A stretch of DNA of 33,373 bases from a virus, in IMG/VR virus record IMGVR_UViG_3300045988_023555, positions 1 to 33,373 of that record. One strand, 5' to 3'. The translations under genes were made by a program, and so were the position numbers. Position 1 is the stretch's first letter. Each line of letters opens with the position of its first letter. Below are positions 10,081 to 23,262 of the stretch, one piece after another. The notes beneath the pieces are model-generated. The model did no database searches. It saw nothing but the letters and a program-made list of their open reading frames with translations, and was not told the DNA's origin.

Positions 10081-10100
10081 CTTTGTTGCCTCCCATTTTT

Positions 10101-10151: not shown

Positions 10152-10245
10152 CGTGGGCTGTGATATTTTGTTGTTGCCGCGATACCGCCTCACACGCAAT
10201 ATCACAGTCCGATAAGCGGCTGTAACCTGACCTCTCATCATCTTT

Positions 10246-10274
10246 ATTATAACTGATTTTAGGACAAATGTCAA
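10246..10274 (-). promoter_or_regulatory. Consensus sigma-A promoter P5, TTGACA-17-TATAAT
   Basis: On the minus strand TTGACA (10274-10269) is followed by a 17-nt spacer and TATAAT (10251-10246), with an A/T-rich upstream tract. Confidence 0.6.
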
Positions 10275-10288
10275 GCGTTTTTTAAAAT

Positions 10289-10915
10289 TTAATCGCATTC
10301 GACAAACTTGCCGTTTTTAAGCGTGTACCAAGTATCAGCCTTGATTTTTTCTCCGTCCACTATTGCCGCTTTGATATTAATTAGTGGATATGTTTCGCCG
10401 TTCCAATTGCCGCGCTCTGCAACAACGATAGCAGAGCCGAGCCCTGCCTTTGCTTTGGAGTTACAGCCTGTTACTATCGCGACAGAACCGCCGCTTGAGA
10501 CTTCAGCTGCTGAATAGTTGCCCGAATTTACGGCTGCTGAATAGTCGCCCGAATTTACGGTTGCTGAATAGTAGCCCGTGTTAGTTGCCGCGCCGTCTTT
10601 CCAATTAACCTTATCGAGGACAAACGAAACACCAGCCTGTATAAGTCCCTCAAGTCCGAGCTCAACGCCAATTTTGATTTTAGTCGAGGCAACTTTGGAG
10701 TCATCATCATGTTTGGAAAGTTCACCGCTTTGCTCCACCTCACAATATCGGTTTCCGTTGCACGGGGGATAATAGCTAAATACTTCTAAAGGATTTTCAC
10801 AAGCGTGAAATCCTTTTTCACAAGCTTTTGCTTCTTTTTCTTCATACTCTTTTCCCACTTCGTACTGAAATCCACTGCACTTTAAATCCTTGTTAAAGCC
10901 TTTATACGTTTTCAT
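10289..10915 (-). CDS. Hypothetical protein with a Cys-rich N-domain and 9-aa repeats
   Basis: 208-aa ORF. It is the only gene between promoter P1 and promoter P5. N-terminus: KCSGFQYEVGKEYEEKEAKACEKGFHACENPLEVFSYY. Central repeats: YSATVNSGDYSAAVNSGNYSAA. Confidence 0.6.
   Translation of the reverse strand: MKTYKGFNKDLKCSGFQYEVGKEYEEKEAKACEKGFHACENPLEVFSYYPPCNGNRYCEVEQSGELSKHDDDSKVASTKIKIGVELGLEGLIQAGVSFVLDKVNWKDGAATNTGYYSATVNSGDYSAAVNSGNYSAAEVSSGGSVAIVTGCNSKAKAGLGSAIVVAERGNWNGETYPLINIKAAIVDGEKIKADTWYTLKNGKFVECD
10507..10587. repeat. 27-bp tandem repeat, about 3 copies, in frame
   Basis: gctgctgaatagttgcccgaatttacg is followed by gctgctgaatagtcgcccgaatttacg and then a degenerate third copy. 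Confidence 0.85.
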
Positions 10916-10976
10916 TGTTTTTACCTCTTTCTTTTTTCTTTATTTTTTGTAAGCCCTTGTCTCACTTTGTGACTAT

Positions 10977-11005
10977 ATTATATAACATATAGTCGCGTTC
11001 GTCAA
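10977..11005 (-). promoter_or_regulatory. Sigma-A promoter P1, TTGACG-17-TATAAT, with an A/T-rich UP-like element
   Basis: On the minus strand TTGACG (11005-11000) is followed by a 17-nt spacer and TATAAT (10982-10977). Upstream is aaaaaaattcaaaaaattttaaaaaacta. It belongs to the conserved block shared with P2 and P3. Confidence 0.6.
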
Positions 11006-11048
11006 TAGTTTTTTAAAATTTTTTGAATTTTTTTAAGTTTACCGCCAA

Positions 11049-11073
11049 ATAAAAAAGCCCGCGCGAGGCGGGC
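11049..11073 (-). terminator. Rho-independent terminator after ssb
   Basis: The minus-strand RNA reads GCCCGC-cucgc-GCGGGC followed by UUUUUUAUUU. Confidence 0.7.
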
Positions 11074-11078
11074 ATAAA

Positions 11079-11444
11079 TCAAAACGGCAAGTCACCGCCT
11101 ATTTTTATTTCTTCAAATACAGGCTCCGAGGATTTTTCTTTCTTACCGCAAAAGCTGACATCATCTGCCAGCACTTCAAACGCTGTGCGCTTGTTGCCGT
11201 CCTTGTCCTCATACTTGCGGGTCTGTATGCTTCCAGTTAAGGCGATTAAATCGCTTTTTGCAAAATACTTGCTGACAAATTCGGCGGTTTTATTCCAAGC
11301 CACTATGTTGATAAAATCCGATGTGGCGCGGTCAAATCGTCTTTCTACGGCGATACAAAATGATACCACCGTTTTGCCTGTGGTGGTCTGCCTGAGTTCA
11401 GGCGTTGCGGTCAGTCTGCCGATAAGTGTTACATTGTTAATCAT
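11079..11444 (-). CDS. ssb: Single-stranded DNA-binding protein
   Basis: The OB-fold N-terminus is MINNVTLIGRLTATPELRQTTTGKTVVSFCIAV. The acidic C-terminal tip ends in DLPF. An AGGAGG RBS precedes the start. Confidence 0.9.
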   Translation of the reverse strand: MINNVTLIGRLTATPELRQTTTGKTVVSFCIAVERRFDRATSDFINIVAWNKTAEFVSKYFAKSDLIALTGSIQTRKYEDKDGNKRTAFEVLADDVSFCGKKEKSSEPVFEEIKIGGDLPF

Positions 11445-11646
11445 TTTCGTTTGTCCTCCTGCTATCTAAAAATTCTTTTGATGACATTCCATATACGCGG
11501 CGAATCCTAAGCTCGCAATTTAGCTTTTCAATTTCGCCGTCGTTTGTGGTTTTGTAAAACTTGCATTTGTCGCATTCGCGTTTTATTAACGCCTTGCAAC
11601 CGTTTTCTGTTGCCGAGCCGTAAGCGAAGCAATTCTGTCTTACCAT
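11437..11646 (-). CDS. Hypothetical small Cys-containing protein
   Basis: 69-aa ORF with a GGGAGG RBS. It overlaps both neighbouring genes by a few nt, which suggests translational coupling. Confidence 0.45.
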   Translation of the reverse strand: MVRQNCFAYGSATENGCKALIKRECDKCKFYKTTNDGEIEKLNCELRIRRVYGMSSKEFLDSRRTNEND

Positions 11647-11918
11647 TTGTAATTCCTCCCGAAAATTTTTATAAAATCAAGGTTGGGATAGACTTCTTCA
11701 AACTTTTTCTGCGCCAGCTCTTGTAAGCGGTGACGGTTGTCCGCGTTGTGGTGCACACCGTTCGGCGGCTCGTTGTGGCACCAGTGGCACAGATACACGG
11801 TCAAGCCGTATTTTTCGCTGTTCTTTCTGTTGGACGCTCCGAATATGTGGTGCTTTTCCAGCCAATCAGCGCGCCCACACAAAAAGCAATTATGTTCCGC
11901 CTGTATAATGCTATTCAC
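11640..11918 (-). CDS. HNH-like Cys/His-rich protein in the recombination module
   Basis: CFLCG...HHIFG...LCHWCHNEPPNGVHH has the spacing of a zinc-finger/HNH nuclease. The start is GTG. I cannot assign an exact family. Confidence 0.45.
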   Translation of the reverse strand: MNSIIQAEHNCFLCGRADWLEKHHIFGASNRKNSEKYGLTVYLCHWCHNEPPNGVHHNADNRHRLQELAQKKFEEVYPNLDFIKIFGRNYKW

Positions 11919-12444
11919 CCGTCCACGCGCCTTTCAGCCTTGCCAATTCTTCGGGGGTCATCGTCTCAATGCCGTTCTCCTTGCAGTCAAAGACAACGAG
12001 GTCAATCAGGCGTGACATCTGCGCGGTATCGTAGGTAGACGAGCCATAGTACACATTGACATTTGTGCAGCCGGGTATTTGGCTTTCAAACGGCTCTGCA
12101 ATCCAGCCCAAGCCGTTTTTGCTCCAGCGTGTAATAAGTCGGAGTACCGCTTTATCCTGCATGCAAAACGTGTCATAATTGCCGCCGATATTTTTGACAT
12201 AGCTTCTGTATATGTCCGATTTCGGCACTCGCGTTTTTGCCGCAAGCTTGCCACATAAAGCCCAAAAATATCCGTTAGCGTCAAGACTCCTTTTAGTTTT
12301 AACGGGGCTTATGTCAATTTCATACGGTCTGTTATCAGACTTAAAAGCATCAACAAGCTCCTTCGCGTAATTCGGGCAGTCCACGGACACGCGCAAGCCG
12401 AAGCCCGCGCTGTCCTGGAACCAGTCAAGATTTTTTACTTCCAT
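11911..12444 (-). CDS. NinB/Orf-like recombination mediator (tentative)
   Basis: KRSLDANGYFWALCGKLA resembles the lambda NinB segment RSLDQNRKLWACLGDV, recalled from memory. The gene lies between the annealase and the HNH-like gene. Confidence 0.45.
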   Translation of the reverse strand: MEVKNLDWFQDSAGFGLRVSVDCPNYAKELVDAFKSDNRPYEIDISPVKTKRSLDANGYFWALCGKLAAKTRVPKSDIYRSYVKNIGGNYDTFCMQDKAVLRLITRWSKNGLGWIAEPFESQIPGCTNVNVYYGSSTYDTAQMSRLIDLVVFDCKENGIETMTPEELARLKGAWTGE

Positions 12445-13051
12445 CCACTTTTAGCCTCCAATCGTTCAAAATTTTTATCGCGTCCATAAGGTCATCATAT
12501 TCAAGGCTTTCTATCGTTGTGCCCTCAGGCTTTGATATTTGCCTCATAAGCGCGTTTAAAATTTCAGCATCACTTTTCCCGCGTGCCTTCGCAAGTCCGC
12601 TTATAATGTTGTTTGCGGCGGTATTTTTGGCATTCCTGCTTGCGTCCTGCTTTTCGGTGGCTTCTTCTTCGGGTAAATCTTCGCCCGCGTAAATATACAA
12701 GCCTAAGCCGTGGCGCGCACAAGCCTTCGTCAAGCTGCGTTGTATCGCCTTATTAACGTCAAAGCTTGTTACATTCTCGGTTGAGATTGACTTGTTCTTG
12801 TAGTCCATAACAGGCAGATATTCTATATGCTCGATTCCGTTGACGGTCACTCCTGTTTTGACCCAGCAGGTGCGTCCGTCGGTGTGGTAGTTCCAGCCGT
12901 CGGCATTTTCGTAGACGGTGTAAGTCGCGTCGGGGTGTCTTTTCTTTATCTCGCCCCACGCCCACGCCCACGAGAGATAGGTAAGGTTATTTTTCTTTTC
13001 TGTGTGTCCGTTGACGTTGACTCCGTAGAGTTCGGTGAAGTAGTTGTCCAT
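12425..13051 (-). CDS. Rad52/Sak-family single-strand annealing protein
   Basis: NLTYLSWAWAWGEIKKRHPDATY...LTKACARHGLGLYIYAGEDLP is characteristic of Sak-type annealases (DUF1071/Rad52-like). Confidence 0.75.
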   Translation of the reverse strand: MDNYFTELYGVNVNGHTEKKNNLTYLSWAWAWGEIKKRHPDATYTVYENADGWNYHTDGRTCWVKTGVTVNGIEHIEYLPVMDYKNKSISTENVTSFDVNKAIQRSLTKACARHGLGLYIYAGEDLPEEEATEKQDASRNAKNTAANNIISGLAKARGKSDAEILNALMRQISKPEGTTIESLEYDDLMDAIKILNDWRLKVDGSKKS

Positions 13052-13182
13052 TGTTCTTCAAGTCCTTTCTTGATTAAAATTTTTACCTGTGCCGCTTTGC
13101 TTATGCTGTTTTCTTTGGCAAGCTTGCAGATTGTTTCATACAGCTCGTGTGACATCGATACGCCTATTGTTTCACTTTTCAT
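12946..13182 (-). CDS. Ribbon-helix-helix (CopG/Arc-like) protein with a long overlapping tail
   Basis: An AAAGGAGG RBS precedes the start, which forms an ATGA overlap with the upstream stop. IGVSMSHELYETICKLAKENSISKAAQVKILIKKGL fits an RHH pattern. The last ~35 codons overlap the annealase gene. Confidence 0.5.
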   Translation of the reverse strand: MKSETIGVSMSHELYETICKLAKENSISKAAQVKILIKKGLEEQWTTTSPNSTESTSTDTQKRKITLPISRGRGRGAR

Positions 13183-13628
13183 TTTTTTGCCTCCTTTTCT
13201 ATCATCTTATCCGCGAACCATGTGCGGTCGGAATCGATGAATTCTGTGCAGTCCAGCGGTTGAATCGCGTTAGCCTGCTTCAATTCGCGGCGCAGTATCA
13301 TGTCAATCTGACGCGGTGTTAAAAGCGACGCATACAGCGCGTTAATCTGCACCGCTTCCGTTTCGTCTCCGCACAAGCTCTCGCAATAGTCAAAATCGTA
13401 CTTGTGTTCGTTCATGCAGTCATAGCAGACATCACAATCCATGTCGTCCTCCGATTTCCACTCTCCACAGATTTCGCACTTTCTCGCCTCTTCAAACTCG
13501 TCACAGTGGCAATATGGGCAAATGTCAACCGTTTGAAATGCGGGCTGACCCCAGCATTCGCCGACATTCTCTTCCGTGTAGTCAGGGCACTCAAAAACGC
13601 TTTCGCAATCTTTGCAAATAAACATCAT
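13179..13628 (-). CDS. Hypothetical multi-CxxC zinc-binding protein
   Basis: The ATG at 13628 follows AAAGGAGGAAAA, and the track start at 13682 has no RBS. CxxC-type pairs include CKDC, CPYC, CEIC and CDVC. Confidence 0.5.
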   Translation of the reverse strand: MMFICKDCESVFECPDYTEENVGECWGQPAFQTVDICPYCHCDEFEEARKCEICGEWKSEDDMDCDVCYDCMNEHKYDFDYCESLCGDETEAVQINALYASLLTPRQIDMILRRELKQANAIQPLDCTEFIDSDRTWFADKMIEKEAKK

Positions 13629-13701
13629 TTTTCCTCCTTTTATGTGCGACCGTCGGGATTGTGACCGTCCGTCTGTCCGCATTACCGCGCCTTTCGGCGC
13701 G

Positions 13702-13941
13702 TCACTCTGCGTATCTTTTAATCATTTCAACAAGCTCGTCCTCGGATATTTCTTCGTAGCCGTAAAAGTTTTCGACATAAAGCTTATCATTTGACGATTT
13801 TACATTAAGACCGTCATCGCCTTGTATAACATAGTTGCCTCTTCTTCCTGTTGCCCACTCTGCTGCCGCTTTCGCGTCGTCAAAAGTCGCGCTGTCAAAG
13901 ATGCAGTCCCGATTGCTCAAGCAGATTTCAAAGTTTTTCAT
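13702..13941 (-). CDS. Hypothetical acidic small protein; first gene after promoter P2
   Basis: 79 aa with 17 D/E against 9 K/R. The leader and RBS (AAAGAAAGAGGTAAAAA) are conserved with those of the gene at 10289-10915. Confidence 0.5.
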   Translation of the reverse strand: MKNFEICLSNRDCIFDSATFDDAKAAAEWATGRRGNYVIQGDDGLNVKSSNDKLYVENFYGYEEISEDELVEMIKRYAE

Positions 13942-13993
13942 AATTTTTTACCTCTTTCTTTATTTTGTTGGTCTCCCTTGACCTTGTGACTAT

Positions 13994-14022
13994 ATTATAT
14001 ATTATTCGATTGCGTTTGTCAA
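13994..14022 (-). promoter_or_regulatory. Consensus sigma-A promoter P2, TTGACA-17-TATAAT, with UP-like element
   Basis: On the minus strand TTGACA (14022-14017) is followed by a 17-nt spacer and TATAAT (13999-13994). The block 13939-14066 aligns with 10913-11042. Confidence 0.6.
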
Positions 14023-14136
14023 TAGTTTTTTTAAAAATCTTTTGAATTTTTTTAAAGTTTTTTGCGGGCTTTTTTCGTGTTTACTTCGTTCACTTTTTTC
14101 TCGTTATAAGTATAATAGAGATAAAGGAGGAATTAT

Positions 14137-14481
14137 ATGTTTAATCCATATTATCCGAATTATCCCTATCAAAATTACACGCAGAATTATCAAAACTGTA
14201 CGCAGAATTTAGAGCGCGGCATCGTCAGGGTCAACGGAATCCAAGGTGCGCAAGCCTATCAGATGGGCGCGAACAGTTCTGTTGCTTTATTCGACGCAAA
14301 TGAGGATTTTTTCTACATCAAGACCACGGACGGCGCGGGATTTGCGTCTATCCGCAAGTTTAAATTCGTTCCGTGCGACGATGCACAGCCCGAAGCAGTC
14401 GACTATGTGACGCGAAAAGAATTTGAAGAACTGAAAGGAATGGTAGAGAATGGCAAGCAGCATATTCGGGAGACAGAATAA
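14137..14481 (+). CDS. Island gene A: hypothetical protein with a Y/N/Q/P-rich N-terminus
   Basis: Strong RBS (AAAGGAGG) 7 nt before the ATG. The N-terminus MFNPYYPNYPYQNYTQNYQN is followed by a likely beta-rich domain (GIVRVNGIQGAQAYQMGANSSVALFDANEDFFYIKTTDG). Confidence 0.6.
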   Translation: MFNPYYPNYPYQNYTQNYQNCTQNLERGIVRVNGIQGAQAYQMGANSSVALFDANEDFFYIKTTDGAGFASIRKFKFVPCDDAQPEAVDYVTRKEFEELKGMVENGKQHIRETE

Positions 14482-14644
14482 TCCTTTTTCGATGATTTCG
14501 GAATTTAAGAAATTTGCCAGCGGGATGACACCTGAAAAAGCACAGCAGGAATTGCAGAGCCTTTTAAACACAGGCAAAATATCCGAGAGCCAGCTTAACC
14601 AGTATAAACAGCAGGCACAGGATTTGATGAAATTTTTGAAATAA
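14450..14644 (+). CDS. Island gene B: hypothetical small helical protein
   Basis: 64-aa ORF that overlaps the end of gene A by 32 nt in another frame. It is Q/K-rich and probably helical. Confidence 0.45.
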   Translation: MASSIFGRQNNPFSMISEFKKFASGMTPEKAQQELQSLLNTGKISESQLNQYKQQAQDLMKFLK

Positions 14645-14687
14645 ACTGCGCGGTTTATTATAAAATTTTTAGAAAGGAAGATTGCAA

Positions 14688-15257
14688 ATGAACGAATATT
14701 CACTTTCTGACCTTGCTGCCGCAACAAGAGACGGCGACGGCTTTGGCGGCGGCGCGTGGTGGATTGTTCTCCTTTTTGTCGTCCTTATGGGCGGCGGATT
14801 TTGGGGCAACCGTCAAGGCGAGTTCGGGCAGTACGCAACAGCGGCAAGCCAGCAGGAGATTCTTTTCGGTCAGCACTTCGGGCAGCTTAACGACCGCCTG
14901 ACTAACATCAGCAACGGAATTTGTGATAGCACCTATGCGCTTAACAATTCCATCAACGCTGAGGGCAGAGCGCTTCAGAGCCAGCTTGCCTCCTGTTGCT
15001 GCGATAACAGATTAGCTACTGCCAATCTCTCGGCGCAGGTTGACAGGCAGACCTGCGACATCGCTAACGCTATCCACGCGGAAGGCGAAGCAACACGCGC
15101 ACTGATTCAGACTAACGAGATTCAGGCTCTTCGCGACAAGGTTTCGAGTTTGGAGATGGATTCCCGCTTTTGCGGCGTAGTCCGTTATCCGATGTCCTAT
15201 TCCTACAGCGCAGGAAATTCGCCGTTCTGCGGCGGATGTTGCAGCAATAACATCTAA
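14688..15257 (+). CDS. Island gene C: single-pass membrane protein, Gly-rich around the TM segment, Cys-rich
   Basis: The ATG at 14688 follows AAAGGAAG. The TM segment is GGGAWWIVLLFVVLMGGGFWG. Cys clusters are SCCCDNR and a C-terminal FCGGCCSNNI. Confidence 0.6.
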   Translation: MNEYSLSDLAAATRDGDGFGGGAWWIVLLFVVLMGGGFWGNRQGEFGQYATAASQQEILFGQHFGQLNDRLTNISNGICDSTYALNNSINAEGRALQSQLASCCCDNRLATANLSAQVDRQTCDIANAIHAEGEATRALIQTNEIQALRDKVSSLEMDSRFCGVVRYPMSYSYSAGNSPFCGGCCSNNI

Positions 15258-15329
15258 CGCCCTAACGGCGAGGCACGGCGGGGCGGCGATAGTCGCTCCG
15301 TTTTCTTATTACAGAAAGGATTGATAAAA

Positions 15330-15731
15330 ATGTCAAAGTCAGCAATATACACAACAAACACGGCAGAACAGACAATCGCGGTCAACAGTGTTATTCCAGT
15401 CGGCATTACTGCGCGTCGTTATGGATGCAATCTCCGACAAGACGGTAACACCATAACGATGGCAGGAAAAGGTTATTATCTTATTAACGCCTCTGCAACC
15501 GTCACACCGTCGGCAGCTGGAACGGCAACAATCACCGCACAGAAAGACGGCGTTGCAATAATCGGCGCATCCGCGGCTGAAACTGTAGCAGCGGCAAGCA
15601 CGACAGTCAATATGGGCATAACGGCTATAGTCCGCAATGTCTGTGACTGTGACAGCTCTATTCTGTCTTTTGTCCTGACTGGTGCGGCTTCTGTCGTCAA
15701 CAATCTCGCAATATCGGTTGAAAAGCTGTAA
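15330..15731 (+). CDS. Island gene D: A/T/V-rich, probably all-beta protein (BclA C-terminal/C1q-like is only a guess)
   Basis: The ATG at 15330 follows GAAAGGA. The sequence has alternating beta-like segments and a VRNVCDCDSS motif. No signal peptide is apparent. Confidence 0.55.
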   Translation: MSKSAIYTTNTAEQTIAVNSVIPVGITARRYGCNLRQDGNTITMAGKGYYLINASATVTPSAAGTATITAQKDGVAIIGASAAETVAAASTTVNMGITAIVRNVCDCDSSILSFVLTGAASVVNNLAISVEKL

Positions 15732-15783
15732 AAAGCGCATTTAAACAGCAGACAATAAAATCAATGAAAATTGGAGGTATTGC

Positions 15784-16230
15784 ATGAAAGAGAAAATTGA
15801 CGCATACAGAAAAAAGCTCGAAGCGGAGATCTCCGACTATATGGAAAGACCCGCCAGCGAACGCGCCGCTGAGGCGGTCATGGGAATGCTTGAGTGCTGG
15901 GAAGCTCTCGGAGATATAGACTGCGACACATTGACCCGCGAGGACTGCGAAGCGTGGAACGAAAAGATGAAAAATGCGGACGGCTCGTCCGGCGCAGTCT
16001 GGAACATGGCTCAAACAAACGCTATGGCGGGGAACAACGGCAGAGTGCCAGACTATTGCTGGAACACGGCGGTTAACATGATGTATTCTGACTATTATGA
16101 GGTCGGCAAAAAATATGGTCTACCCGCTCCTGAGTTTTACGCGGAACTCGCAAAAGCTTTTCTGTTTGACAAGGACGCAAAGTCTCCCGAGTCCAAAATG
16201 GCGGCATACTATAATTATATCGTAAAATGA
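15784..16230 (+). CDS. Island gene E: hypothetical acidic helical protein
   Basis: 148-aa ORF with a GGAGG RBS 7 nt before the ATG. Confidence 0.55.
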   Translation: MKEKIDAYRKKLEAEISDYMERPASERAAEAVMGMLECWEALGDIDCDTLTREDCEAWNEKMKNADGSSGAVWNMAQTNAMAGNNGRVPDYCWNTAVNMMYSDYYEVGKKYGLPAPEFYAELAKAFLFDKDAKSPESKMAAYYNYIVK

Positions 16231-16270
16231 CAAAAAGGCAGGGCGCAAGCTCTGCCTTTGGAGGTATTAT

Positions 16271-16561
16271 ATGATTGACTACAATTCTATCAAATCCGAT
16301 TTGGCGCAATATGAATTAGATTATGACAATTCTTTCACGGCTCTGAACAAACTTGCGCCGCTTTACTGTGCCATGCTGTACCACACCCTCTCAGACCCTC
16401 AGAATGTGCCCACAAAAGGCGATTCCGAGTTTTATAAGATAATTAGTGGTAAAAATTTAACGGCTGTTCTGGGGGTAATTGACGAGCTTTTAGGGGCTAT
16501 CAAGTGCATTAATATAAATCTTTATCAAGCCACTTTGCAAAAGCTCGTAAACCTTGATTAA
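16271..16561 (+). CDS. Island gene F: hypothetical protein
   Basis: 96-aa ORF with a GGAGG RBS. A hairpin (AGGCAG...CTGCCT) precedes it. Confidence 0.5.
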   Translation: MIDYNSIKSDLAQYELDYDNSFTALNKLAPLYCAMLYHTLSDPQNVPTKGDSEFYKIISGKNLTAVLGVIDELLGAIKCININLYQATLQKLVNLD

Positions 16562-16689
16562 CGCTTTTTAAACTTTTCGGCAAGCTTATCCTCGAACGCG
16601 ATAAGCTTGTCTTCTTTTATAAACCCGTAGATAATGCCCACAACAAGCAGGATTTCAAAGACCGTTTGAATTGCAAATTTAAAAATCAT
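16558..16689 (-). CDS. 43-aa hydrophobic peptide driven by promoter P3
   Basis: A GGGAGA RBS sits 7 nt before the ATG at 16689. Translation: MIFKFAIQTVFEILLVVGIIYGFIKEDKLIAFEDKLAEKFKKR. Its stop overlaps the stop of plus-strand gene F. It is below the ORF-track cutoff. Confidence 0.45.
   Translation of the reverse strand: MIFKFAIQTVFEILLVVGIIYGFIKEDKLIAFEDKLAEKFKKR
16579..16618 (+). terminator. Terminator of the plus-strand island
   Basis: GGCAAGCTTATC-ctcgaacgc-GATAAGCTTGTC forms a 12-bp stem with one G-U pair, followed by TTCTTTT. It lies inside the convergent 43-aa ORF. Confidence 0.55.
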
Positions 16690-16721
16690 TTTAATGTCTC
16701 CCTTCTTTGTTTTGCAGTTAT

Positions 16722-16750
16722 ATTATATACCATGTTGTTACATTTGTCAA
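16722..16750 (-). promoter_or_regulatory. Consensus sigma-A promoter P3, TTGACA-17-TATAAT, with UP-like element
   Basis: On the minus strand TTGACA (16750-16745) is followed by a 17-nt spacer and TATAAT (16727-16722). It shares ttgtcaatagttttttaaaa...ttttgaa with P1 and P2. Confidence 0.6.
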
Positions 16751-16780
16751 TAGTTTTTTAAAATATTTTTGAACTTTTTA

Positions 16781-16812
16781 AAAAACAAAAGCACCCAGCC
16801 GAAGCCGAGCAC
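16781..16812 (-). terminator. Rho-independent terminator, minus-strand specific
   Basis: The RNA reads GUGCUCGGC-UUCG-GCUGGGUGC followed by UUUUGUUUUU. Several pairs are G-U, so the stem forms only in the minus-strand transcript. Confidence 0.6.
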
Positions 16813-16833
16813 CTTTGTAGACACGCATGAAGC
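16781..16833 (-). ncRNA. Candidate small RNA 2 (about 50 nt, promoter to terminator)
   Basis: It is bounded by the TTGACT-16-TACAAT promoter (16867-16840) and the terminator at 16781-16812. No RBS is present. Confidence 0.3.
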
Positions 16834-16839
16834 ATATAT

Positions 16840-16867
16840 ATTGTATCACATATTATAAAAAAGTCAA
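16840..16867 (-). promoter_or_regulatory. Sigma-A-like promoter, TTGACT-16-TACAAT
   Basis: On the minus strand TTGACT (16867-16862) is followed by a 16-nt spacer and TACAAT (16845-16840). Confidence 0.4.
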
Positions 16868-16871
16868 GTAT

Positions 16872-16902
16872 AAAGCAAAACAGCACCGATTTCTCGATGC
16901 TG
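16872..16902 (-). terminator. Rho-independent terminator
   Basis: The RNA reads CAGCAUCGA-GAAA-UCGGUGCUG (9-bp stem, GNRA loop) followed by UUUUGCUUU. Confidence 0.65.
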
Positions 16903-16985
16903 CTCTGCCATTTCAGAAATACTTTCCAAAAGGGGGGGTAAAAAAATAAAGAAAGGAGTAATCGTGACCCAGAAATCAATCACTA
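16872..16985 (-). ncRNA. Candidate small RNA 1 (about 110 nt) with an anti-Shine-Dalgarno-like tract
   Basis: It is bounded by the TTGACA-17-TATACT promoter (17020-16992) and the terminator at 16872-16902. It contains UACUCCUUUCUUUAUUUUUUUACCCCCCC and no credible ORF. Confidence 0.3.
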
Positions 16986-16991
16986 TTAGAT

Positions 16992-17020
16992 AGTATAAAG
17001 CATTGCTCGCCATTTGTCAA
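16992..17020 (-). promoter_or_regulatory. Sigma-A promoter, TTGACA-17-TATACT
   Basis: On the minus strand TTGACA (17020-17015) is followed by a 17-nt spacer and TATACT (16997-16992). Confidence 0.5.
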
Positions 17021-17047
17021 GCACTTTACGGATATTTTATAATCGCT

Positions 17048-17254
17048 TTACAGATATTTTATTATCAGTTTTTCACATTTGTAGATTATATTCTGAATTT
17101 GTCGGACGGAGTAGCCGAACTCCTCCGCTAAATCCTCCTGCTTTACGCCGTCAAGCCAGCGGCGCGATATAATCCTCCTGTATGTTTCGTTGTGAATCCG
17201 CTGATAAATCAGATTTTCCCATTCTTCACGGGATAATTTAGCTGTGTCAATCAT
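17048..17254 (-). CDS. Small sigma-70 region-4-like/HTH regulator (tentative)
   Basis: 68 aa. WLDGVKQEDLAEEFGYSVRQIQNIIYK looks like a region-4 HTH. The start forms an ATGA overlap with the upstream stop. Confidence 0.4.
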   Translation of the reverse strand: MIDTAKLSREEWENLIYQRIHNETYRRIISRRWLDGVKQEDLAEEFGYSVRQIQNIIYKCEKLIIKYL

Positions 17255-18039
17255 ACATAAAAGCCTATTGTCTGCATAGATTTCTTTCTGCCTGATATCC
17301 GCAGGACATAGAGCTTGTCAGACTGCGGACGATACGCCGATTTTGCCCCATAGCCGCCGAACGATAAAAAAGAGCCGCAGTTAATACACTCTATATTCTT
17401 TTTGGTGATTTTGTTGTTGTACTTGTCAAATACAAGCTTAGCCCTCGGACGGTCTTTTGCTTTGTGGTCGTGACCGCTTGCAAAAAAATCTATACCGTCC
17501 GTATAGTCGGCGGAGTGAACCGATTTAATGTCTTTTGCCTGATGTTGCAGCTGCCCGAAGTAGTGTATCTGCTTTGCGCTTGACGGCTTGATTTCTCCGA
17601 TTGCTATGTTTAGAAACGCTATTGTGTCACGGTATTTTTCCCCGATTCCTGCTATCAAGCAACAATCATATAGAGGATAAAGTCCGCAAGTTTTTGTGGC
17701 GCGGTTGTGACAGTGATTGCCGGGCACTACGGCTATAGTCTTCTCTTTCAGCTCGGATAACTGTTCTGTAACCCATTCTTTTTGATGTGCGGGGCTTGCG
17801 GTCTGCGTGAATATGTCGGACTTGCTGTTGGGAATAGCATCCTCCATTAAATCGCCCACCCAGCATATATACGCGTTAGGGTCTGCGATTATCTGTGCTT
17901 TTAAATTATTCCACTTCTTCGCGTCGAACAGCTCCGAGCCATAGTGCAAATCGTGAATAAAATATATATCTGCATATTCTTTGTCGCGAGGAAGTTTAAA
18001 AATAATCGGCGTATCGTCAGGCAAGAACATATCTGTCAC
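17251..18039 (-). CDS. Calcineurin-like metallophosphoesterase
   Basis: Motifs occur in order: IHDLHYG, WVGDLMED, VPGNHC, and later SGHDH. Confidence 0.75.
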   Translation of the reverse strand: MTDMFLPDDTPIIFKLPRDKEYADIYFIHDLHYGSELFDAKKWNNLKAQIIADPNAYICWVGDLMEDAIPNSKSDIFTQTASPAHQKEWVTEQLSELKEKTIAVVPGNHCHNRATKTCGLYPLYDCCLIAGIGEKYRDTIAFLNIAIGEIKPSSAKQIHYFGQLQHQAKDIKSVHSADYTDGIDFFASGHDHKAKDRPRAKLVFDKYNNKITKKNIECINCGSFLSFGGYGAKSAYRPQSDKLYVLRISGRKKSMQTIGFYV

Positions 18040-18851: not shown

Positions 18852-20999
18852 TTACACAAAAGCGAGTTTTTTTGAGCCTGTTGTATTTGACCAGAATATT
18901 ATACCGCTTTGCGTGAACGTAAGACGATAGGCGTTGCCGCCCGCGTCCATAAGTCGAACCTCAGCTCTGTCGCTTTGCGCGGCGAACAAATCCGCACGAA
19001 CGTAATTGTTGCCAGCTGACGTGGTGTCCTGAACTCGAACCGTAAACGCCGGAGAGCTTGCCACAATCGAAGCCCCGAAGTTCGTTACAAACTTGTTTTC
19101 CCCGTTGTAACCAGTCGCTCGGTACGCGAGGTATTCGCCGGGAGATGTTGTGTAGCCGTATTCGTTGACGTGTAATGCTCGTCTGATTCGCGTTGCATCT
19201 TTTTCGACGAGCATATAGTCAGTGTCCCAGTTATTCTTCAAACCGCCGACGGCAGGCATCGCCGCAGAAGCGTTCGCGGTTGACGTGCCAAACCTAAAGC
19301 CTTTTGAGGACTGCTCGCCTATCGTAAACTCAGGCGCGGCTATGGTCGCATACCAGTCGCCGCCGAGTGCGGTTTTAAACAGCATCGAGCTACCAAAGGT
19401 CAGATATTTTTCCCCTGTTCCGCTGCCTGTGCCTGCGCCTTGATATAGGTCAAGCACGCCGCCGGACAAGTCCGCTTTATAGCCGTCGTTGTTTAAGACG
19501 GACAGTGTACCGCCGTCAAGGTTTATATCGCCGCCGGTAATGTTGATATCAGAGGCTTCGATGTGTCCGGTTTCGAGATTAAAGGAAAATTCGCCGTTTG
19601 TGGACTGCATTATTCCAGCTTTGATGATGTTCGCTGTTAAAGTGCCTGTGTCGATAAAGTCGGCGACAATGTGACCGTCCTGCGTTATTGCGGTTTTATA
19701 TGTGCCGTTGTAACCAGTGGACGAATAGCCAAGACCCGACAAATTCCACCGCCATATCTTTTTGGCTGTGCTTGCGTTTGCGGTATCCATTATTAAAAGC
19801 TCCTGCGGATTCTCAGACGGATTAAGCCTGATATAACCGCCGCTGTTGCCAGTGATTGCCGCTGTTGCGTCCGCTATTGCCTTTTGATACGCTTCTGTAA
19901 TTTCTGATTTGCTCGAAATGGCAATGTTCTTCGCGTCCGTTGCTTCTTTGACCGTTTGCGAGATAATGCTTGACATATCTGCGCGAGCACTGCCGAGTTC
20001 TATCTTTGTGTATTTTTCGGCGATTGTATCGTAGACGGTTTTTATAACTTTTGCCTTGATATTTACGCCGAGTTCCTTGTGATGGATTTTAACAGTATCG
20101 CAGAGATTGACGGCTTCAAGCGGCGCGATATTTGCATATTCAGGTGACTGCGCAAGATTGACAAAAGAAACGGTAACAGAAGCTTTGATAGAATTGATAT
20201 CATTATCTTCTGCGTATTTCTTAACCGTCGCGTCAAGCGAACTTTGTGTCGGCGTGTTCTCCCCAAAGTCGGAGGAGAAATCACGAACAAGAATGCGCGT
20301 TGAAATACCGCTTGTGTTCGCGACATTGTAAGAGCTTACGAGATTAATATCATCTGTCTTGACATAGCCAAAAATTCCAGTATATGATGCAGACATATCA
20401 ACATCACATTTTAGCTCCGTCATGTTTTTGCCGTAGGCTATTCTCACGCCGTTATCCTTGCCGCGCGCCTTGTGGAGCTTGATAGTGTAATTGTCAAACT
20501 CATACTCGCCGCCATAGGTGTAGAGCACAGAGCCTTCAACGCCGCCGAGAGCCGCACGAGCGGAAACATTGGAAAGATTGATAGACGAGGAAAGCGTTAT
20601 ATCAGTTGTCGCCGCTGTAAACCCTGTTGCTTTTCCAAGCTGATTTTTTGCGGCGGTCAATATAGCATTTATCGCAACTTGCGCATTGCCCGATGCAGAA
20701 ACAGTCGGCACAGGATAGCCCGACAGAATGTAACTGACATGCTCCGCGTAAACCGTGAACTCGCCGTTAATAGGCTTTGAGACTTTGTAAATGTGAAATA
20801 GCTGATTTGCGCTTGTTTGATTCGGCTTTGCTTTAATGTAACAATCTGTCACAATGTCATTGGCGTGGGTTGCGCCGATGGGGTATACAAGCTCAAGCTC
20901 ATACACCCCGTTGCGCTCTTCCGTCACTTCGCACTCGGTGCATTCCGACAGCCAGCCTATTTTTGTTTTTGCGTCCGCTTTTAAGAGTATTGGAGTCAT
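18852..20999 (-). CDS. Tail-associated lysin/tail tip protein (Tal, prophage tail endopeptidase-like N-terminus)
   Basis: 715 aa, immediately after Dit. The N-terminus MTPILLKADAKTKIGWLSECTECEVTEERNGVYELELVYP is typical of siphovirus Tal proteins. Confidence 0.7.
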   Translation of the reverse strand: MTPILLKADAKTKIGWLSECTECEVTEERNGVYELELVYPIGATHANDIVTDCYIKAKPNQTSANQLFHIYKVSKPINGEFTVYAEHVSYILSGYPVPTVSASGNAQVAINAILTAAKNQLGKATGFTAATTDITLSSSINLSNVSARAALGGVEGSVLYTYGGEYEFDNYTIKLHKARGKDNGVRIAYGKNMTELKCDVDMSASYTGIFGYVKTDDINLVSSYNVANTSGISTRILVRDFSSDFGENTPTQSSLDATVKKYAEDNDINSIKASVTVSFVNLAQSPEYANIAPLEAVNLCDTVKIHHKELGVNIKAKVIKTVYDTIAEKYTKIELGSARADMSSIISQTVKEATDAKNIAISSKSEITEAYQKAIADATAAITGNSGGYIRLNPSENPQELLIMDTANASTAKKIWRWNLSGLGYSSTGYNGTYKTAITQDGHIVADFIDTGTLTANIIKAGIMQSTNGEFSFNLETGHIEASDINITGGDINLDGGTLSVLNNDGYKADLSGGVLDLYQGAGTGSGTGEKYLTFGSSMLFKTALGGDWYATIAAPEFTIGEQSSKGFRFGTSTANASAAMPAVGGLKNNWDTDYMLVEKDATRIRRALHVNEYGYTTSPGEYLAYRATGYNGENKFVTNFGASIVASSPAFTVRVQDTTSAGNNYVRADLFAAQSDRAEVRLMDAGGNAYRLTFTQSGIIFWSNTTGSKKLAFV

Positions 21000-21026: not shown

Positions 21027-21731
21027 TTATAATTCGCGCCAGTGCGGGACAATTTCTATTTTTGTCACCGTTCCAGTCCAGCTTATAGAGTTTACGCCCG
21101 ATTTAAAGGTCGGAAAATCGTCAAAGTTCGCGCGGTCTGCCTTGCTGCTTGTGCCAGTAAATACCGCCTGCAAGTTGCTATCACATTCGATATAGCTTGA
21201 TACTGATATGAAAGCAAAGGATTTATTATTTACTTTAAGCGTGATATTTCCGCTTCCGTAAATTTTAAAATACGGCAGAGCGGTGTACTGCGTCGGATTT
21301 GTGATACTTCCTGCCGCTGTCAAGGTTGTTTTTTGGTTGCCCGTCCTGAGGTTTCTGTAAGGCTTGCAGTTAAAAGCTATCTCTATATCAGCCCATTCGC
21401 CTTTTCCGAGATAGTCCCAGTCAACAGAGCCAGTTCTCGCCGCCAGTCTGTAATGTGTAGAATCGTCGCTGTCAATTAGTTGTTGATATCCAACGGCTGA
21501 AAGCCAGTTGGCTATTTCTAACAGCTTTGACTTGACATTTTTTACGCGGACTTGATAGGTGACATCAACATTCCTATAGCGTCCGTTGTCTAAAATCACT
21601 TCTCCGTCTCTTCCGGGCACTTCGACAAAATCAGCGTCGCGGACGGGTGCTTTGTATGTTTCTTTGTGCTTGATGATTATGCCAAAGTCCGAGGACTTCT
21701 TGCCGTTCCAAGTAAAATAATCGTTAAGCAT
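21027..21731 (-). CDS. Distal tail protein (Dit)
   Basis: I take the start at ATG 21731 (MLNDYFTWNGKKSSDFGIII...), which overlaps the tape measure stop by 8 nt. Position and N-terminal motif fit a siphovirus Dit. Confidence 0.7.
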   Translation of the reverse strand: MLNDYFTWNGKKSSDFGIIIKHKETYKAPVRDADFVEVPGRDGEVILDNGRYRNVDVTYQVRVKNVKSKLLEIANWLSAVGYQQLIDSDDSTHYRLAARTGSVDWDYLGKGEWADIEIAFNCKPYRNLRTGNQKTTLTAAGSITNPTQYTALPYFKIYGSGNITLKVNNKSFAFISVSSYIECDSNLQAVFTGTSSKADRANFDDFPTFKSGVNSISWTGTVTKIEIVPHWREL

Positions 21732-23262
21732 AAGCACCCGCCTTTCTCTCTGCTGCATTTGCAAGCATTTCTGACAGCCTTTCTGCAAGGCTCTTGATGT
21801 CTTCCTGCGTATAATTATTGAATGTGTCAATATTAAGCGTTAGAGAAACTCCCTTTGACGCAGAAGTTCCGACGGAAACGCCAAACCCCGCCGATACGGA
21901 CGCGCCGTAATTGTCAATAACACCTTGCGACACATCTTTGATTGCGGAAAATGCGTCTTTACCGCCCTGCTCGATGCCGATTGCCAGTCCCTCGGTCGTG
22001 AACTTACCGATTTTCTTGAACACCTTTGACGGCGAAGCAATGCCAAGAATCTTTTTTGCAATGTTTGTAAGGTCTCCGAAGAGGTTTTTAAACCATTCTC
22101 TAAAATTTTTCCAAGCATTCGCAACACCTTGCTTCATTCCGGCTACTATGTTTTTGCCGATGCTGCTCCAGTTGTAAGAGCGGAAAGTATCAACGATTGA
22201 CGCAATAATCCGTGGTATCATTGCAACCATGTCGGGGATTGCCTGAATCATGCCCTGTGCAATAGCCAGCAGGAGACGAACACCGCCGCTTATCAGTGTT
22301 CCGAGATTGTTCAGCAGCCCGTTTGTAATCGCTATAATAACATTAGGCACATACGCCATCAGTTCGGGCAACGCTTCCATGAGTCCGTGAATTAATGCTA
22401 CCATTATTTCAACGGCTGCCGCCATGATGTTAGGCAACTCTGTGATTATTGTTGCCGTGATAGCTCCGACAAGCTGAGGAACTGCGGCAATTAACTGAGG
22501 AATAGCGTCCATTAACCCATGCACAAGCGCAAGCACCAAGTCAAGTGCAGACTCGGTTATCGCGTTAAGGCTTGCGGGGTCTGACAAAGTATTAGCAATA
22601 GCAACGACGGTCTGAGTCACCGCGTTTATTGCCGATTCTATCAGCTGTGGCAGACTGTCACTTGTGATAAGTGCCAAAATCGCTTTAAATAGCGTGTCCC
22701 AGAATTTTGGTACGGTTTCCAGCAGTTTTGCCGCGACATCGGACAACGCAGACAACAGCGGCGGAACCATTCCGTCTATCAGTGTCGGAAGTACATCCAA
22801 AACACCGTTTAAAAGGTTTGCCGTCGCGTCAAGCAGTCCGGGGAGAACCTTGTTGACTACATCAGGGAGCTTTGCAATAAGCACGGGCGCAAGCTTATCA
22901 ACGAGCTTTCCAATACCAGTCAAAGACTGCTCCACGCGGGGGAGGATATTGCCAGCCGCAATTACAACAGAGTCGACGAAGTTATCAACCAATTTGCCAA
23001 AGTTTTGATTGTCGTCTGCAATGCCGACTAACAGATTCTGCCAAGACGCCTTTGCGGAACTGAGCGAGCCTTGAATGGTCTTTTCCGCTTCTTCTCTTGT
23101 TGTGCCAGCAATGCCCATTTCTTTCTGAACGGCGTGTATTGCTTCGACGATATCAGCATAACTGGAAATGTCAAACTTCTTGCCCGTCAGTTTTTCGGCA
23201 TCTCTCAGCAGGCGTTCCATTTCCTCTTTAGTGCCACCATACATTATGTTCGCCACAGGTCG
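21724..23262 (-). CDS. Tape measure protein, exon 2 (proposed)
   Basis: It reads ...ANIMYGGTKEEMERLLRDAEKLTGKKFDISSYADIVEAIHAVQKEMGIAGTT, then a long Ala/Leu/Ile-rich helical region. There is no RBS and no plausible own start. An in-frame TAG lies 3 codons upstream of the track start. Confidence 0.7.
   Translation of the reverse strand, partial: RPVANIMYGGTKEEMERLLRDAEKLTGKKFDISSYADIVEAIHAVQKEMGIAGTTREEAEKTIQGSLSSAKASWQNLLVGIADDNQNFGKLVDNFVDSVVIAAGNILPRVEQSLTGIGKLVDKLAPVLIAKLPDVVNKVLPGLLDATANLLNGVLDVLPTLIDGMVPPLLSALSDVAAKLLETVPKFWDTLFKAILALITSDSLPQLIESAINAVTQTVVAIANTLSDPASLNAITESALDLVLALVHGLMDAIPQLIAAVPQLVGAITATIITELPNIMAAAVEIMVALIHGLMEALPELMAYVPNVIIAITNGLLNNLGTLISGGVRLLLAIAQGMIQAIPDMVAMIPRIIASIVDTFRSYNWSSIGKNIVAGMKQGVANAWKNFREWFKNLFGDLTNIAKKILGIASPSKVFKKIGKFTTEGLAIGIEQGGKDAFSAIKDVSQGVIDNYGASVSAGFGVSVGTSASKGVSLTLNIDTFNNYTQEDIKSLAERLSEMLANAAERKAGAYA

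What the first reader, a model, noticed from the sequence alone, without database searches (positions are those of the whole stretch)
16558..17047. Gene-poor regulatory hub: two promoter-to-terminator mini-units (candidate sRNAs) and a 43-aa hydrophobic peptide convergent with the island
About 490 bp on the minus strand carry the following in order. First, TTGACA-17-TATACT (17020-16992) leads into about 110 nt ending at a 9-bp GAAA-capped terminator (16872-16902). Second, TTGACT-16-TACAAT (16867-16840) leads into about 50 nt ending at a UUCG-capped terminator, whose G-U pairs make it minus-strand specific (16781-16812). Third, consensus promoter P3 drives a 43-aa peptide, MIFKFAIQTVFEILLVVGIIYGFIKEDKLIAFEDKLAEKFKKR. 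That peptide's coding region contains the terminator of the convergent plus-strand island, and its stop overlaps the stop of island gene F. Candidate sRNA 1 contains UUACUCCUUUCUUUAUUUU. This is complementary to the P2 leader (AAAAUAAAGAAAGAGGUAA, 13 contiguous pairs plus 4 more after a 2-nt mismatch) and so covers the Shine-Dalgarno of the gene at 13702-13941. It is also partly complementary to the P1 leader. Read on the plus strand, the same tract looks like an inverted degenerate copy of that leader (aaaataaagaaaggagtaatcGTG) followed by only 9 codons. A small hydrophobic peptide under a strong promoter, with antisense transcription across its 3' end, also resembles a type I toxin-antitoxin or holin-like arrangement. 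The complementarity is A/U-rich and could be coincidental.
Basis: partly seen in the sequence, partly recalled or inferred. Interest (0 to 1): 0.65.

Follow-up and report, generated by a model that had tools for sequence, protein, structure and literature searches.

The report
Two candidate small RNAs, gut phage
A 490-bp gene-poor stretch at the junction of late and early genes in a human-gut Clostridia phage carries two short promoter-to-terminator units that look like real small-RNA genes, plus a conserved 43-residue membrane-protein gene. It is a believable but ordinary kind of finding, with no expression data and no known function.

Summary
The window is a complete circular 33.3-kb siphophage genome from human-gut Clostridia. 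The stretch lies between the last late genes and the early genes.

Comparison with 7-12 related phage genomes supports two minus-strand small-RNA units:
- The promoter hexamers are invariant while their spacers vary about 50%.
- Both terminator stems pair in 100% of cells, and every stem substitution is G-U to G-C or A-U.
- The plus-strand complements do not fold.
- sRNA2 (about 55 nt) is essentially invariant, with 0/21 variable 5' positions against 46% at neighbouring third codon positions.
- The sRNA1 body evolves fast but is always pyrimidine-rich with anti-Shine-Dalgarno-like motifs.

The proposed pairing of sRNA1 with the P2/P1 early leaders is ambiguous. The 13-14-nt exact runs are rare in shuffles, but the duplex energy is no better than shuffles.

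The 43-aa ORF is a real, widely conserved phage early gene. In other phages it sits inside operons, so the toxin-antitoxin reading is not supported; the holin reading is unresolved.

There is no Rfam match, no expression data, and no target for sRNA2. Verdict: new member of a known kind (phage-encoded sRNAs), moderate interest.

The parts
17012..17055 (-). Two tandem 22-bp copies (GATTATAAAATATCYGTAAAG) immediately upstream of the sRNA1 promoter. The upstream copy is the 3' end and stop codon of the HTH gene, so this is a duplication scar. It persists in relatives that have lost the HTH gene.
   Evidence: D13; 2 matches vs 0.2 expected
16992..17020 (-). Promoter Ps1: TTGACA-17-TATACT (TATAAT in 11 of 12 relatives).
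   Evidence: The -35 is invariant and the -10 varies at 1 of 6 columns in 7 unbiased relatives, while 8/17 spacer columns vary.
16866..16985 (-). Candidate sRNA1, about 115-120 nt with inferred ends. It has a 5' hairpin, a long unpaired pyrimidine-rich tract, and terminator T1. It also forms the 3' end of the late-operon transcript.
   Evidence: MFE -34.7, z -3.85; plus-strand complement z -0.98
16928..16967 (-). CU-rich tract of sRNA1 (UUACUCCUUUCUUUAUUUUUUUACCCCCCCUUUU). It is the most pyrimidine-rich 40-nt window on the minus strand of the genome (85%). It holds the only CCCCCC in the genome and the only CTCCTTTC on that strand. Relatives carry CACCUCCUUUC or ACUCCUUUC at the equivalent place.
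16874..16909 (-). T1: GAAA-capped intrinsic terminator. It ends sRNA1 and, by position, the late operon.
   Evidence: scans 16 pairs; one search counts the 15 tested pairs, 100% paired, with the 2 variable pairs both G-U<->G-C.
16840..16867 (-). Promoter Ps2: TTGACT-16-TGnTACAAT (extended -10).
   Evidence: 3/28 columns variable
16779..16834 (-). Candidate sRNA2, about 55 nt with inferred ends. It has an unpaired 5' segment of about 21 nt (AUGCUUCAUGCGUGUCU...) followed by T2.
   Evidence: z -4.66; complement z +0.73; 0/21 variable 5' columns
16785..16818 (-). T2: UUCG-capped intrinsic terminator with 5 G-U pairs, so it works on the minus strand only.
   Evidence: 15 pairs, 100% paired; the 2 variable pairs change G-U to G-C and G-U to A-U
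16719..16781 (-). P3 early-promoter cassette: an A/T-rich UP-like tract plus TTGACA-17-TATAAT. It is paralogous to P2 (14053-13991) and P1 (11036-10974) and resembles the promoters at 10274 and 8428.
   Evidence: D1; hexamers invariant, spacer 11/17 variable
16558..16689 (-). Gene for a 43-aa single-pass membrane protein with a charged tail. It belongs to a widespread phage early-gene family.
   Evidence: mostly synonymous variation; 129 clusters
16579..16611 (+). Plus-strand hairpin (GCAAGCUUAUC...GAUAAGCUUGU) followed by UUCUUUUAU. It is the probable terminator of convergent gene F (16271-16561) and is embedded in the peptide ORF.
   Evidence: The hairpin is present only in genomes that carry gene F (win, L003, L004) and is disrupted in L001, L002 and L005.
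13948..13979 (-). P2 leader and Shine-Dalgarno tract, complementary to the sRNA1 tract (32 nt, 78%). The P1 leader counterpart lies at 10928-10948.
   Evidence: (I1, I5)

Best explanation
The stretch is the junction between the late operon and the early/accessory region of a circular 33-kb Clostridia siphophage.

Shown by comparative sequence evidence:
- It carries two independent, strand-specific promoter-to-terminator units.
- It also carries one copy of the phage's repeated strong early promoter, driving a conserved small membrane-protein gene.

Inferred:
- Host sigma-A RNA polymerase transcribes an RNA of about 115 nt (sRNA1) and one of about 55 nt (sRNA2).
- T1, backed by T2, also terminates the long late transcript. 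sRNA1 is therefore a 3'-UTR-embedded sRNA with its own promoter.
- sRNA1 most likely acts through its unpaired CU-rich, anti-Shine-Dalgarno-like tract, pairing with purine-rich ribosome-binding sites. The P1/P2 early leaders are the best candidates inside the phage.
- sRNA2 is under strong sequence constraint and has no complementary site in the phage. It most likely acts on a host RNA or protein through its unpaired 5' segment.
- The 43-aa protein is an ordinary early accessory gene, not part of an RNA-controlled toxin system.
For: Genome context:
- PHROG annotation and a 55-nt terminal overlap.
- Human-gut and Clostridia/Eubacteriales sources.

Promoters:
- The hexamers of Ps1, Ps2 and P3 are essentially invariant, while the Ps1 and P3 spacers vary at 8/17 and 11/17 columns.
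- All seven promoters that match a near-consensus TTGAC-N16-18-TA[TC]A[AC]T lie at 8.4-17 kb on the minus strand.

Terminators:
- 30 pairs are 100% paired in 7 genomes.
- All 4 variable stem positions are G-U<->G-C/A-U.
- Folding is strand-asymmetric.
- T1 and T2 are the strongest minus-strand terminators in the genome.

Constraint:
- The sRNA2 5' segment has 0/21 variable columns, T2 3/34 and Ps2 3/28. Third codon positions of the adjacent gene vary at 46%.

sRNA1:
- The tract is unpaired in the MFE folds of most variants.
- It is the most pyrimidine-rich window on the minus strand.
- Relatives carry CACCUCCUUUC.
- Exact complementary runs of 14 nt (P1) and 13 nt (P2) compare with 9 or fewer for the other initiation regions, and are rare in shuffles.

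Module behaviour:
- The block is kept intact while flanking genes (the HTH gene, the island, accessory cassettes) come and go.

Analogous units:
- A relative at 70% protein identity (L033) has an HTH stop, then a promoter, a CU-rich RNA of about 95 nt and a terminator.
- It also has a promoter, an RNA of about 55 nt and a UUCG terminator directly before an early-promoter cassette.
Against:
- There is no Rfam family at gathering or E-value thresholds.
- No stem pair shows a double compensatory change, because the relatives are only 10-15% diverged.
- Five of the twelve sequences were retrieved by an exact 21-mer inside sRNA2. Only the 7 protein-anchored genomes are unbiased for its conservation.
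- The sRNA1 body is fast-evolving with indels (22 variable + 38 gapped of 88 columns).
- Its duplex energy with the leaders equals that of dinucleotide shuffles. It ranks only 5th of 48 initiation regions for P2 and 15th for P1.
- L036 and most HTH-family loci have only a terminator after the HTH gene. T1 could therefore be an ancestral operon terminator.
- sRNA2 has no homologue outside the close clade and no identifiable target.
Confidence: 0.55

Rival explanations
1. There are no functional small RNAs. T1 and T2 are simply tandem terminators and insulators at the end of the late operon, protecting the early promoters from read-through. The two 'promoters' give at most by-product transcripts.
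For: - T1 and T2 are the only long-stem terminators downstream of about 19 kb of late genes.
- In the wider HTH family the gene is normally followed directly by one terminator.
- L036 has terminators but no promoters at both positions.
Against: - Promoter hexamers are invariant while spacers drift.
- The 21 nt between the Ps2 -10 and T2 are invariant although they are not needed for termination.
- The CU-rich tract is retained through many indels.
- An analogous promoter-plus-RNA arrangement exists in L033 with different sequence.
Confidence: 0.2
2. One reading: sRNA1 is a dedicated trans-antisense repressor of the P2 (and P1) early leaders, occluding their Shine-Dalgarno sequences, like the P1 c4 or P4 CI immunity RNAs.
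For: - The complement is 32 nt at 78% with the P2 leader and 21 nt at 86% with the P1 leader.
- Exact runs of 13 and 14 nt are the two best among 47 initiation regions. They are reached by 1/500 shuffles against P2 and 10/500 against any region.
- In L001, L003, L028 and L030 an A-to-G change in the sRNA lies opposite a leader U, which keeps the position as a G-U pair.
Against: - Duplex energy is not better than shuffles in the window or in five relatives.
- The tract is the least conserved segment while the leaders are conserved.
- L005 and L029 have deletions across the tract.
- The L033 analogue has no extended match to its early leader.
- The match is A/U-rich, and the P1 and P2 leaders are paralogues, so the two hits are not independent.
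Confidence: 0.2
3. One or both RNAs are anti-defence decoys. They would be RNA mimics of a host guide, repeat or antitoxin RNA (the Racr / rAcrIIA1 type), expressed early from strong promoters next to a variable accessory region.
For: - sRNA2 is invariant, has no target in the phage, and has a strong promoter.
- In relatives the neighbouring P3-driven cassettes encode pentapeptide-repeat proteins and other swappable genes.
- A precedent exists: a promoter-driven phage RNA of about 111 nt in an intergenic region that inhibits Cas9 (doi 10.64898/2026.06.03.729762).
Against: - No CRISPR-repeat family of Rfam matches; the best is CRISPR-DR26 at E = 4, and that lies in the promoter.
- The 21-mer of sRNA2 has no exact copy in 185,579 representative genomes.
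- There is no repeat-like internal structure, and the host and its defence systems are unknown.
Confidence: 0.1
4. The 43-aa peptide is a type I toxin or a holin, controlled by antisense transcription from the convergent island.
For: - It is a small protein with one hydrophobic helix and a charged tail.
- In the window, L003 and L004 the convergent gene F transcript would overlap its 3' end by about 50-80 nt.
- In several relatives it follows a SleB-like cell-wall hydrolase gene.
Against: - In L001, L002 and L005 nothing is convergent, and L023 and L024 show the same co-directional layout. There a different C-terminal tail is followed by a co-directional gene.
- In distant temperate phages the gene overlaps both neighbours inside the early operon.
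- There is no dedicated antisense promoter.
- The phage's endolysin module lies 14 kb away.
- There is no match in Pfam, NCBIfam or PHROGs.
Confidence: 0.05
5. Ps1/T1 and Ps2/T2 are promoter-proximal terminated units awaiting a phage antiterminator, like lambda PR'-tR' with its 6S RNA. They would feed transcription into the downstream accessory genes.
For: Strong promoters are followed after 50-110 nt by strong terminators, upstream of co-directional genes.
Against: - A 12/12 consensus promoter with an UP-like tract (P3) sits directly after T2, so read-through is unnecessary.
- No Q- or N-like antiterminator was identified.
- The late genes lie upstream, not downstream.
Confidence: 0.05

Closest known systems
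3'-UTR-embedded sRNAs with their own promoter that share the mRNA's terminator (e.g. DapZ, MicL; established knowledge)
   Same: sRNA1 starts from a promoter placed just after the last late-operon stop codon. It ends at the hairpin that must also terminate that operon.
   Different: It is phage-encoded and from a Gram-positive (Clostridia) setting. There is no Hfq-type seed conservation, and the body is fast-evolving. Expression has not been shown.
C-rich / CU-rich anti-Shine-Dalgarno sRNAs of Firmicutes (RoxS/RsaE, FsrA, UCCC-motif Rsa RNAs; e.g. PMC6158497, PMC5419742)
   Same: It has an unpaired pyrimidine-rich tract with C runs and CCUUUC / CACCUCC motifs that can pair with GGAGG-type ribosome-binding sites.
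   Different: There is no sequence or Rfam relationship. The motifs lie in a long unstructured stretch, not in hairpin loops. The targets are untested.
Phage antisense / immunity RNAs: P22 sar, lambda OOP (cis), P1 c4 and P4 CI (trans, RBS occlusion) (review PMC12197685 for sar and OOP; c4 and CI from established knowledge)
   Same: A short phage RNA with its own promoter and terminator, with complementarity to the ribosome-binding region of the first early genes.
   Different: The complementarity is imperfect, A/U-rich, not energetically exceptional and not conserved. No repressor or lysogeny module is linked to it, and no integrase was found in the window.
RNA anti-CRISPRs (Racr; rAcrIIA1, doi 10.64898/2026.06.03.729762)
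   Same: A promoter-driven small RNA in a non-coding gap of a Firmicute phage, next to variable accessory genes. sRNA2 shows strong sequence constraint.
   Different: No resemblance to any CRISPR repeat or tracrRNA was found, and the host is unknown.
Type I toxin-antitoxin systems with 3'-overlapping antisense (TxpA/RatA, BsrG/SR4; established knowledge)
   Same: A small hydrophobic peptide, with a convergent transcript overlapping its 3' end in the window.
   Different: The overlap is absent in half of the relatives, the gene lies inside operons elsewhere, and there is no dedicated antitoxin RNA.

Membership tests
Intrinsic (Rho-independent) terminator | A G+C-containing stem-loop immediately followed by a U-run on the transcribed strand | tested here: met
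   T1 has 16 pairs + UUUAUACUU and T2 has 15 pairs + UUUUUU. The pairing is kept in all relatives, and only the minus strand folds.
Sigma-70/sigma-A promoter | -35 and -10 hexamers at 16-18 nt, conserved while the spacer drifts | tested here: met
   Activity itself could not be tested with these tools.
Independent small-RNA gene | A discrete transcript with defined 5' and 3' ends | not testable with these tools
Independent small-RNA gene | Sequence or structure conservation beyond neutral expectation | tested here: met
   Met for sRNA2: 0/21 and 3/34 variable columns against 46% at third codon positions. For sRNA1 only the promoter, the terminator and the CU-richness are conserved.
Any Rfam family | Covariance-model score at or above the gathering threshold | tested here: not met
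   The best scores were 26 bits against a gathering score of 93, and 25 against 60.
Trans-antisense RBS-occluding phage RNA (c4 / CI type) | Specific complementarity to the target RBS beyond composition, maintained in relatives | tested here: inconclusive
   The exact run is significant. The energy is not, and the match is not maintained in L005, L029 or L033.
Type I toxin-antitoxin | A dedicated antisense RNA overlapping the toxin mRNA, conserved with it | tested here: not met
Type I toxin-antitoxin | A small hydrophobic toxic peptide | tested here: inconclusive
   It is hydrophobic with a charged tail. Toxicity could not be tested.
Holin | A membrane protein encoded next to the endolysin in the late lysis cassette | tested here: not met
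   The endolysin is at 30652-31644, 14 kb away, and the gene is driven by an early-type promoter. In some relatives it follows a SleB-like hydrolase, so a lysis-related role is not excluded.
RNA anti-CRISPR (Racr) | Resemblance to a host CRISPR repeat or tracrRNA | tested here: inconclusive
   No Rfam CRISPR-DR match and no exact copy in representative genomes. The host arrays are unknown.

The most novel reading that the evidence does not exclude
sRNA2, or the 16S-3'-end-like sRNA1, is an early-expressed RNA decoy. It would either mimic a host defence RNA (CRISPR guide or tracr, type III antitoxin) or titrate Shine-Dalgarno sequences to redirect translation. That would make it an RNA-based takeover or anti-defence device in uncultured gut Clostridia phages.
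Probability: 0.12. Interest if true: 0.8.

Novelty: new member of a known kind. Interest (0 to 1): 0.42.

Why it matters
Phage-encoded small RNAs are well documented mainly for E. coli and Vibrio phages (PMC12197685). Almost nothing is known for phages of gut Clostridia. This work delimits two candidates precisely, with comparative support, in a phage lineage that recurs across human-gut metagenomes. sRNA2 is as constrained as first and second codon positions of the neighbouring gene, which makes it a concrete, clonable target for functional work. The analysis also shows that a tempting antisense pairing and a tempting toxin-antitoxin reading rest largely on composition and on one genome's gene arrangement.

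Tried and rejected
- Rfam at gathering and E-value thresholds gave nothing for the region.
- BLAST of 1 kb against 50,697 phage records gave only an A/T-rich 70-nt hit.
- Exact 21-mer scans found only the same close clade in IMG/VR and metagenomes and nothing in GTDB genomes.
- A covariance model of sRNA2 found no homologue in 43 related or neighbouring loci beyond the clade. One 28-bit hit in L074 is a generic UUCG terminator.
- A naive whole-genome RNAduplex scan with long seeds was uninformative, because loops dominate.
- A target search for sRNA2 inside the phage found a best exact complement of 9 nt, below the shuffle mode of 10.
- The plus-strand micro-ORF (GTG + 9 codons) and the 73-aa minus-strand ORF 16758-16979 were rejected as genes. 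Frames break and lengths differ among relatives.
- A leaderless 25-codon ORF starting at the sRNA2 5' AUG was considered. There is no SD, it runs through the terminator, and its C-terminus frameshifts among relatives, so it is unlikely but not excluded.
- The 22-bp direct repeats were considered as operator sites. They are better explained as a duplication of the HTH gene's 3' end.
Full report
**Context**

The window ends repeat 55 nt exactly, so it is a circular assembly of about 33.3 kb. PHROG and Pfam scans give the following layout.
- The minus strand carries the early genes: Sak-like annealing protein, NinB, SSB, replication initiator, DnaC-like loader, RusA, HNH, RDF-like protein, ParB-methyltransferase.
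- It continues with terminase, portal, capsid, tail, tape-measure, Dit and tail endopeptidase (18852-20999).
- It ends with a metallophosphoesterase (17251-18039) and a 68-aa sigma-region-4-like HTH protein (17048-17254).
- A five-gene island (14137-16561) is on the plus strand.

Close relatives come from human-gut metagenomes. More distant ones come from Clostridia/Eubacteriales MAGs. The finding therefore sits exactly between the end of the late genes and the early/accessory region.

**Observation**

The hairpins are longer than stated: the scan counts 16 and 15 pairs. Promoter-like sites are three times over-represented in 13.5-18 kb (23 against 7.0 +/- 2.9).

All seven minus-strand promoters that match a near-consensus TTGAC-N16-18-TA[TC]A[AC]T lie between 8.4 and 17 kb.

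T1 and T2 are the two strongest terminator-like hairpins on the minus strand of the whole genome. No comparable terminator lies between the structural genes and T1, so T1 and T2 must also end the late transcript.

P3 is one of three copies of a 63-nt cassette. The other two are P1 at 11036-10974 and P2 at 14053-13991 (D1). Two further promoters of the same style lie at 10274 and 8428.

**Are the two mini-units real?**

I collected the region from seven genomes found through neighbouring proteins. These are unbiased with respect to the RNA sequence. Five more came from an exact 21-mer scan and are biased for sRNA2.

The table shows variation in the unbiased set. The neutral yardstick is third codon positions of the adjacent metallophosphoesterase gene, which vary in 46% of columns.

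| Segment | Variable columns |
|---|---|
| Ps1 spacer | 8/17 |
| P3 spacer | 11/17 |
| Ps1 hexamers | 1/12 |
| P3 hexamers | 0/12 |
| Ps2, -35 to -10 | 3/28 |
| T1 | 2/34 |
| T2 | 3/34 |
| sRNA2, between the Ps2 -10 and T2 | 0/21 |
| sRNA1 body | 22 variable + 38 gapped of 88 |

Other evidence:
- All 30 stem pairs are paired in all genomes.
- The four variable stem positions all sit on G-U pairs and change them to G-C or A-U. There are no double compensatory changes at this shallow divergence.
- The minus-strand RNAs fold far better than shuffles (z -3.85 and -4.66). Their complements do not (z -0.98 and +0.73).
- The block stays intact while its neighbours change. The HTH gene is missing in L001, L003 and L005. 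The island is missing or replaced. P3 drives different first genes.
- In a relative at 70% protein identity (L033), the HTH stop overlaps TTGACT-17-TGnTAATAT. A CU-rich, largely unstructured RNA of about 95 nt and a terminator follow.
- Further on in L033, a terminator, a promoter, an RNA of about 55 nt and a UUCG terminator directly precede an early-promoter cassette.
- L036 and most of 37 HTH-family loci have only a terminator after the HTH gene. T1 therefore looks like the ancestral operon terminator, into whose 3' UTR a promoter and a CU tract were built.

**sRNA1**

Its 5' hairpin and T1 flank 30-45 unpaired nucleotides. That tract is the most pyrimidine-rich 40-nt window on the minus strand of the genome. 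It contains the only CCCCCC in the genome. Relatives carry CACCUCCUUUC, ACUCCUUUC or UCCUUUCUUU there. These resemble the 16S 3' end and the C-rich seeds of Firmicute sRNAs (established knowledge).

The proposed pairing with the P2/P1 leaders is real as sequence: 32 nt at 78% and 21 nt at 86%.
- For it: the exact runs of 13 nt (P2) and 14 nt (P1) are the two best among 47 initiation regions. The next best is 9. Shuffles reach them 1/500 times against P2 and 10/500 against any region.
- Against it: duplex energy is ordinary. P2 ranks 5th of 48, and 45/300 shuffles do as well. The result is similar in five relatives.
- Against it: the tract is the least conserved part of the region.
- Against it: L033 shows no extended match.

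I conclude that the conserved property is anti-SD-like CU-richness. Specific control of P1/P2 is possible but unproven.

**sRNA2**

The unit is invariant apart from three pair-preserving or loop changes. It has no complement in the phage longer than 9 nt, which is below the shuffle mode. It has no Rfam match, no copy in representative genomes, and no homologue outside the clade. Its constraint argues for a specific partner outside the phage genome. What that partner is remains open.

**The peptide**

Variation among six genomes is dominated by synonymous changes. The family has 129 clusters at E <= 0.01, with a highly conserved core: KFAIQTVFEI..IIYGF..EDKLIAFEDK.

In temperate phages that carry an integrase and an S24 repressor, the gene lies inside the early operon and overlaps both neighbours. 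In close relatives it follows a SleB-like hydrolase and precedes a pentapeptide-repeat protein.

Two C-terminal alleles exist. The allele found with convergent gene F contains the plus-strand hairpin and U-rich tail. The other allele lacks it. The embedded terminator is therefore real. It is a consequence of one gene arrangement, not a conserved control device. Neither sRNA is complementary to the peptide mRNA.

**Verdict**

The most likely reading is two phage-encoded small RNAs of a known general kind, with unproven targets, next to an ordinary early accessory gene.

Noticed in passing
window 13653-13711 (-): A full-length Twister-P5 ribozyme (RF02684, 56.7 bits, gathering score 37.6) lies between the 79-aa gene 13702-13941 and the next gene. 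L001, L003 and L005 lack the 79-aa gene: there the P2 leader runs straight into the MFICKDC gene. The ribozyme therefore sits in an inserted segment.
   Followed up: partly
window 21724-24856 (-): The tape-measure gene is split. The N-terminal part (24326-24856) and the main part (21724-23256) are separated by an HNH endonuclease gene (23591-24076). This may be an intron or homing-element insertion. No group I/II intron was found by Rfam at the gathering threshold.
   Followed up: partly
window 10078-10274 (-): A 12/12 consensus promoter at 10274-10246 is followed by a strongly structured leader (-55 kcal/mol, z -3.2). The leader contains a 13-bp hairpin plus UUUUACUUU just before the replication-initiator start. 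This could be an attenuator or a third promoter-to-terminator unit. It is conserved in L008.
   Followed up: partly
window 10506-10586: Three tandem 27-bp repeats (GCTGCTGAATAGTTGCCCGAATTTACG) lie inside ORF 10289-10915, just upstream of the replication-initiator gene. They look like iterons and are a candidate origin.
   Followed up: no
window 8400-17020 (-): Five paralogous early-promoter cassettes have A/T-rich UP-like tracts (P3, P2, P1, 10274, 8428). The P1 and P2 leaders start with AUAGUCACA plus a small hairpin.
   Followed up: partly
L001 5181-6171; L005 1954-4290; L023 and L024 3482-4517: In relatives the space between T2 and P2 is a swappable accessory region. It encodes a SleB-like cell-wall hydrolase with an N-terminal hydrophobic segment, the small membrane protein, and pentapeptide-repeat proteins of very different lengths (109-279 aa).
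   Followed up: partly
L040, L048, L056, L062, L063, L067, L072 (about 10-60 nt after the HTH stop): A recurrent motif, TTG[CT]ACGAAAG, sometimes doubled, lies between the HTH-family gene stop and its terminator in many IMG/VR phages. It could be a binding site or a promoter element for the sigma-like HTH protein.
   Followed up: no
window 17014-17043 (+): A plus-strand promoter-like site, TTGTCA-18-TATAAT (11/12), overlaps the Ps1 -35 back-to-back. It would transcribe antisense to the HTH and metallophosphoesterase genes. Its -10 lies in the 22-bp duplicated segment.
   Followed up: no
window 1-55 and 33319-33373; 30652-32299: A 55-nt exact terminal overlap indicates a circular assembly. A repeat-containing ORF runs across the junction. 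The endolysin module sits unusually between the portal and head-morphogenesis genes. No integrase was found among the ORFs scanned.
   Followed up: partly
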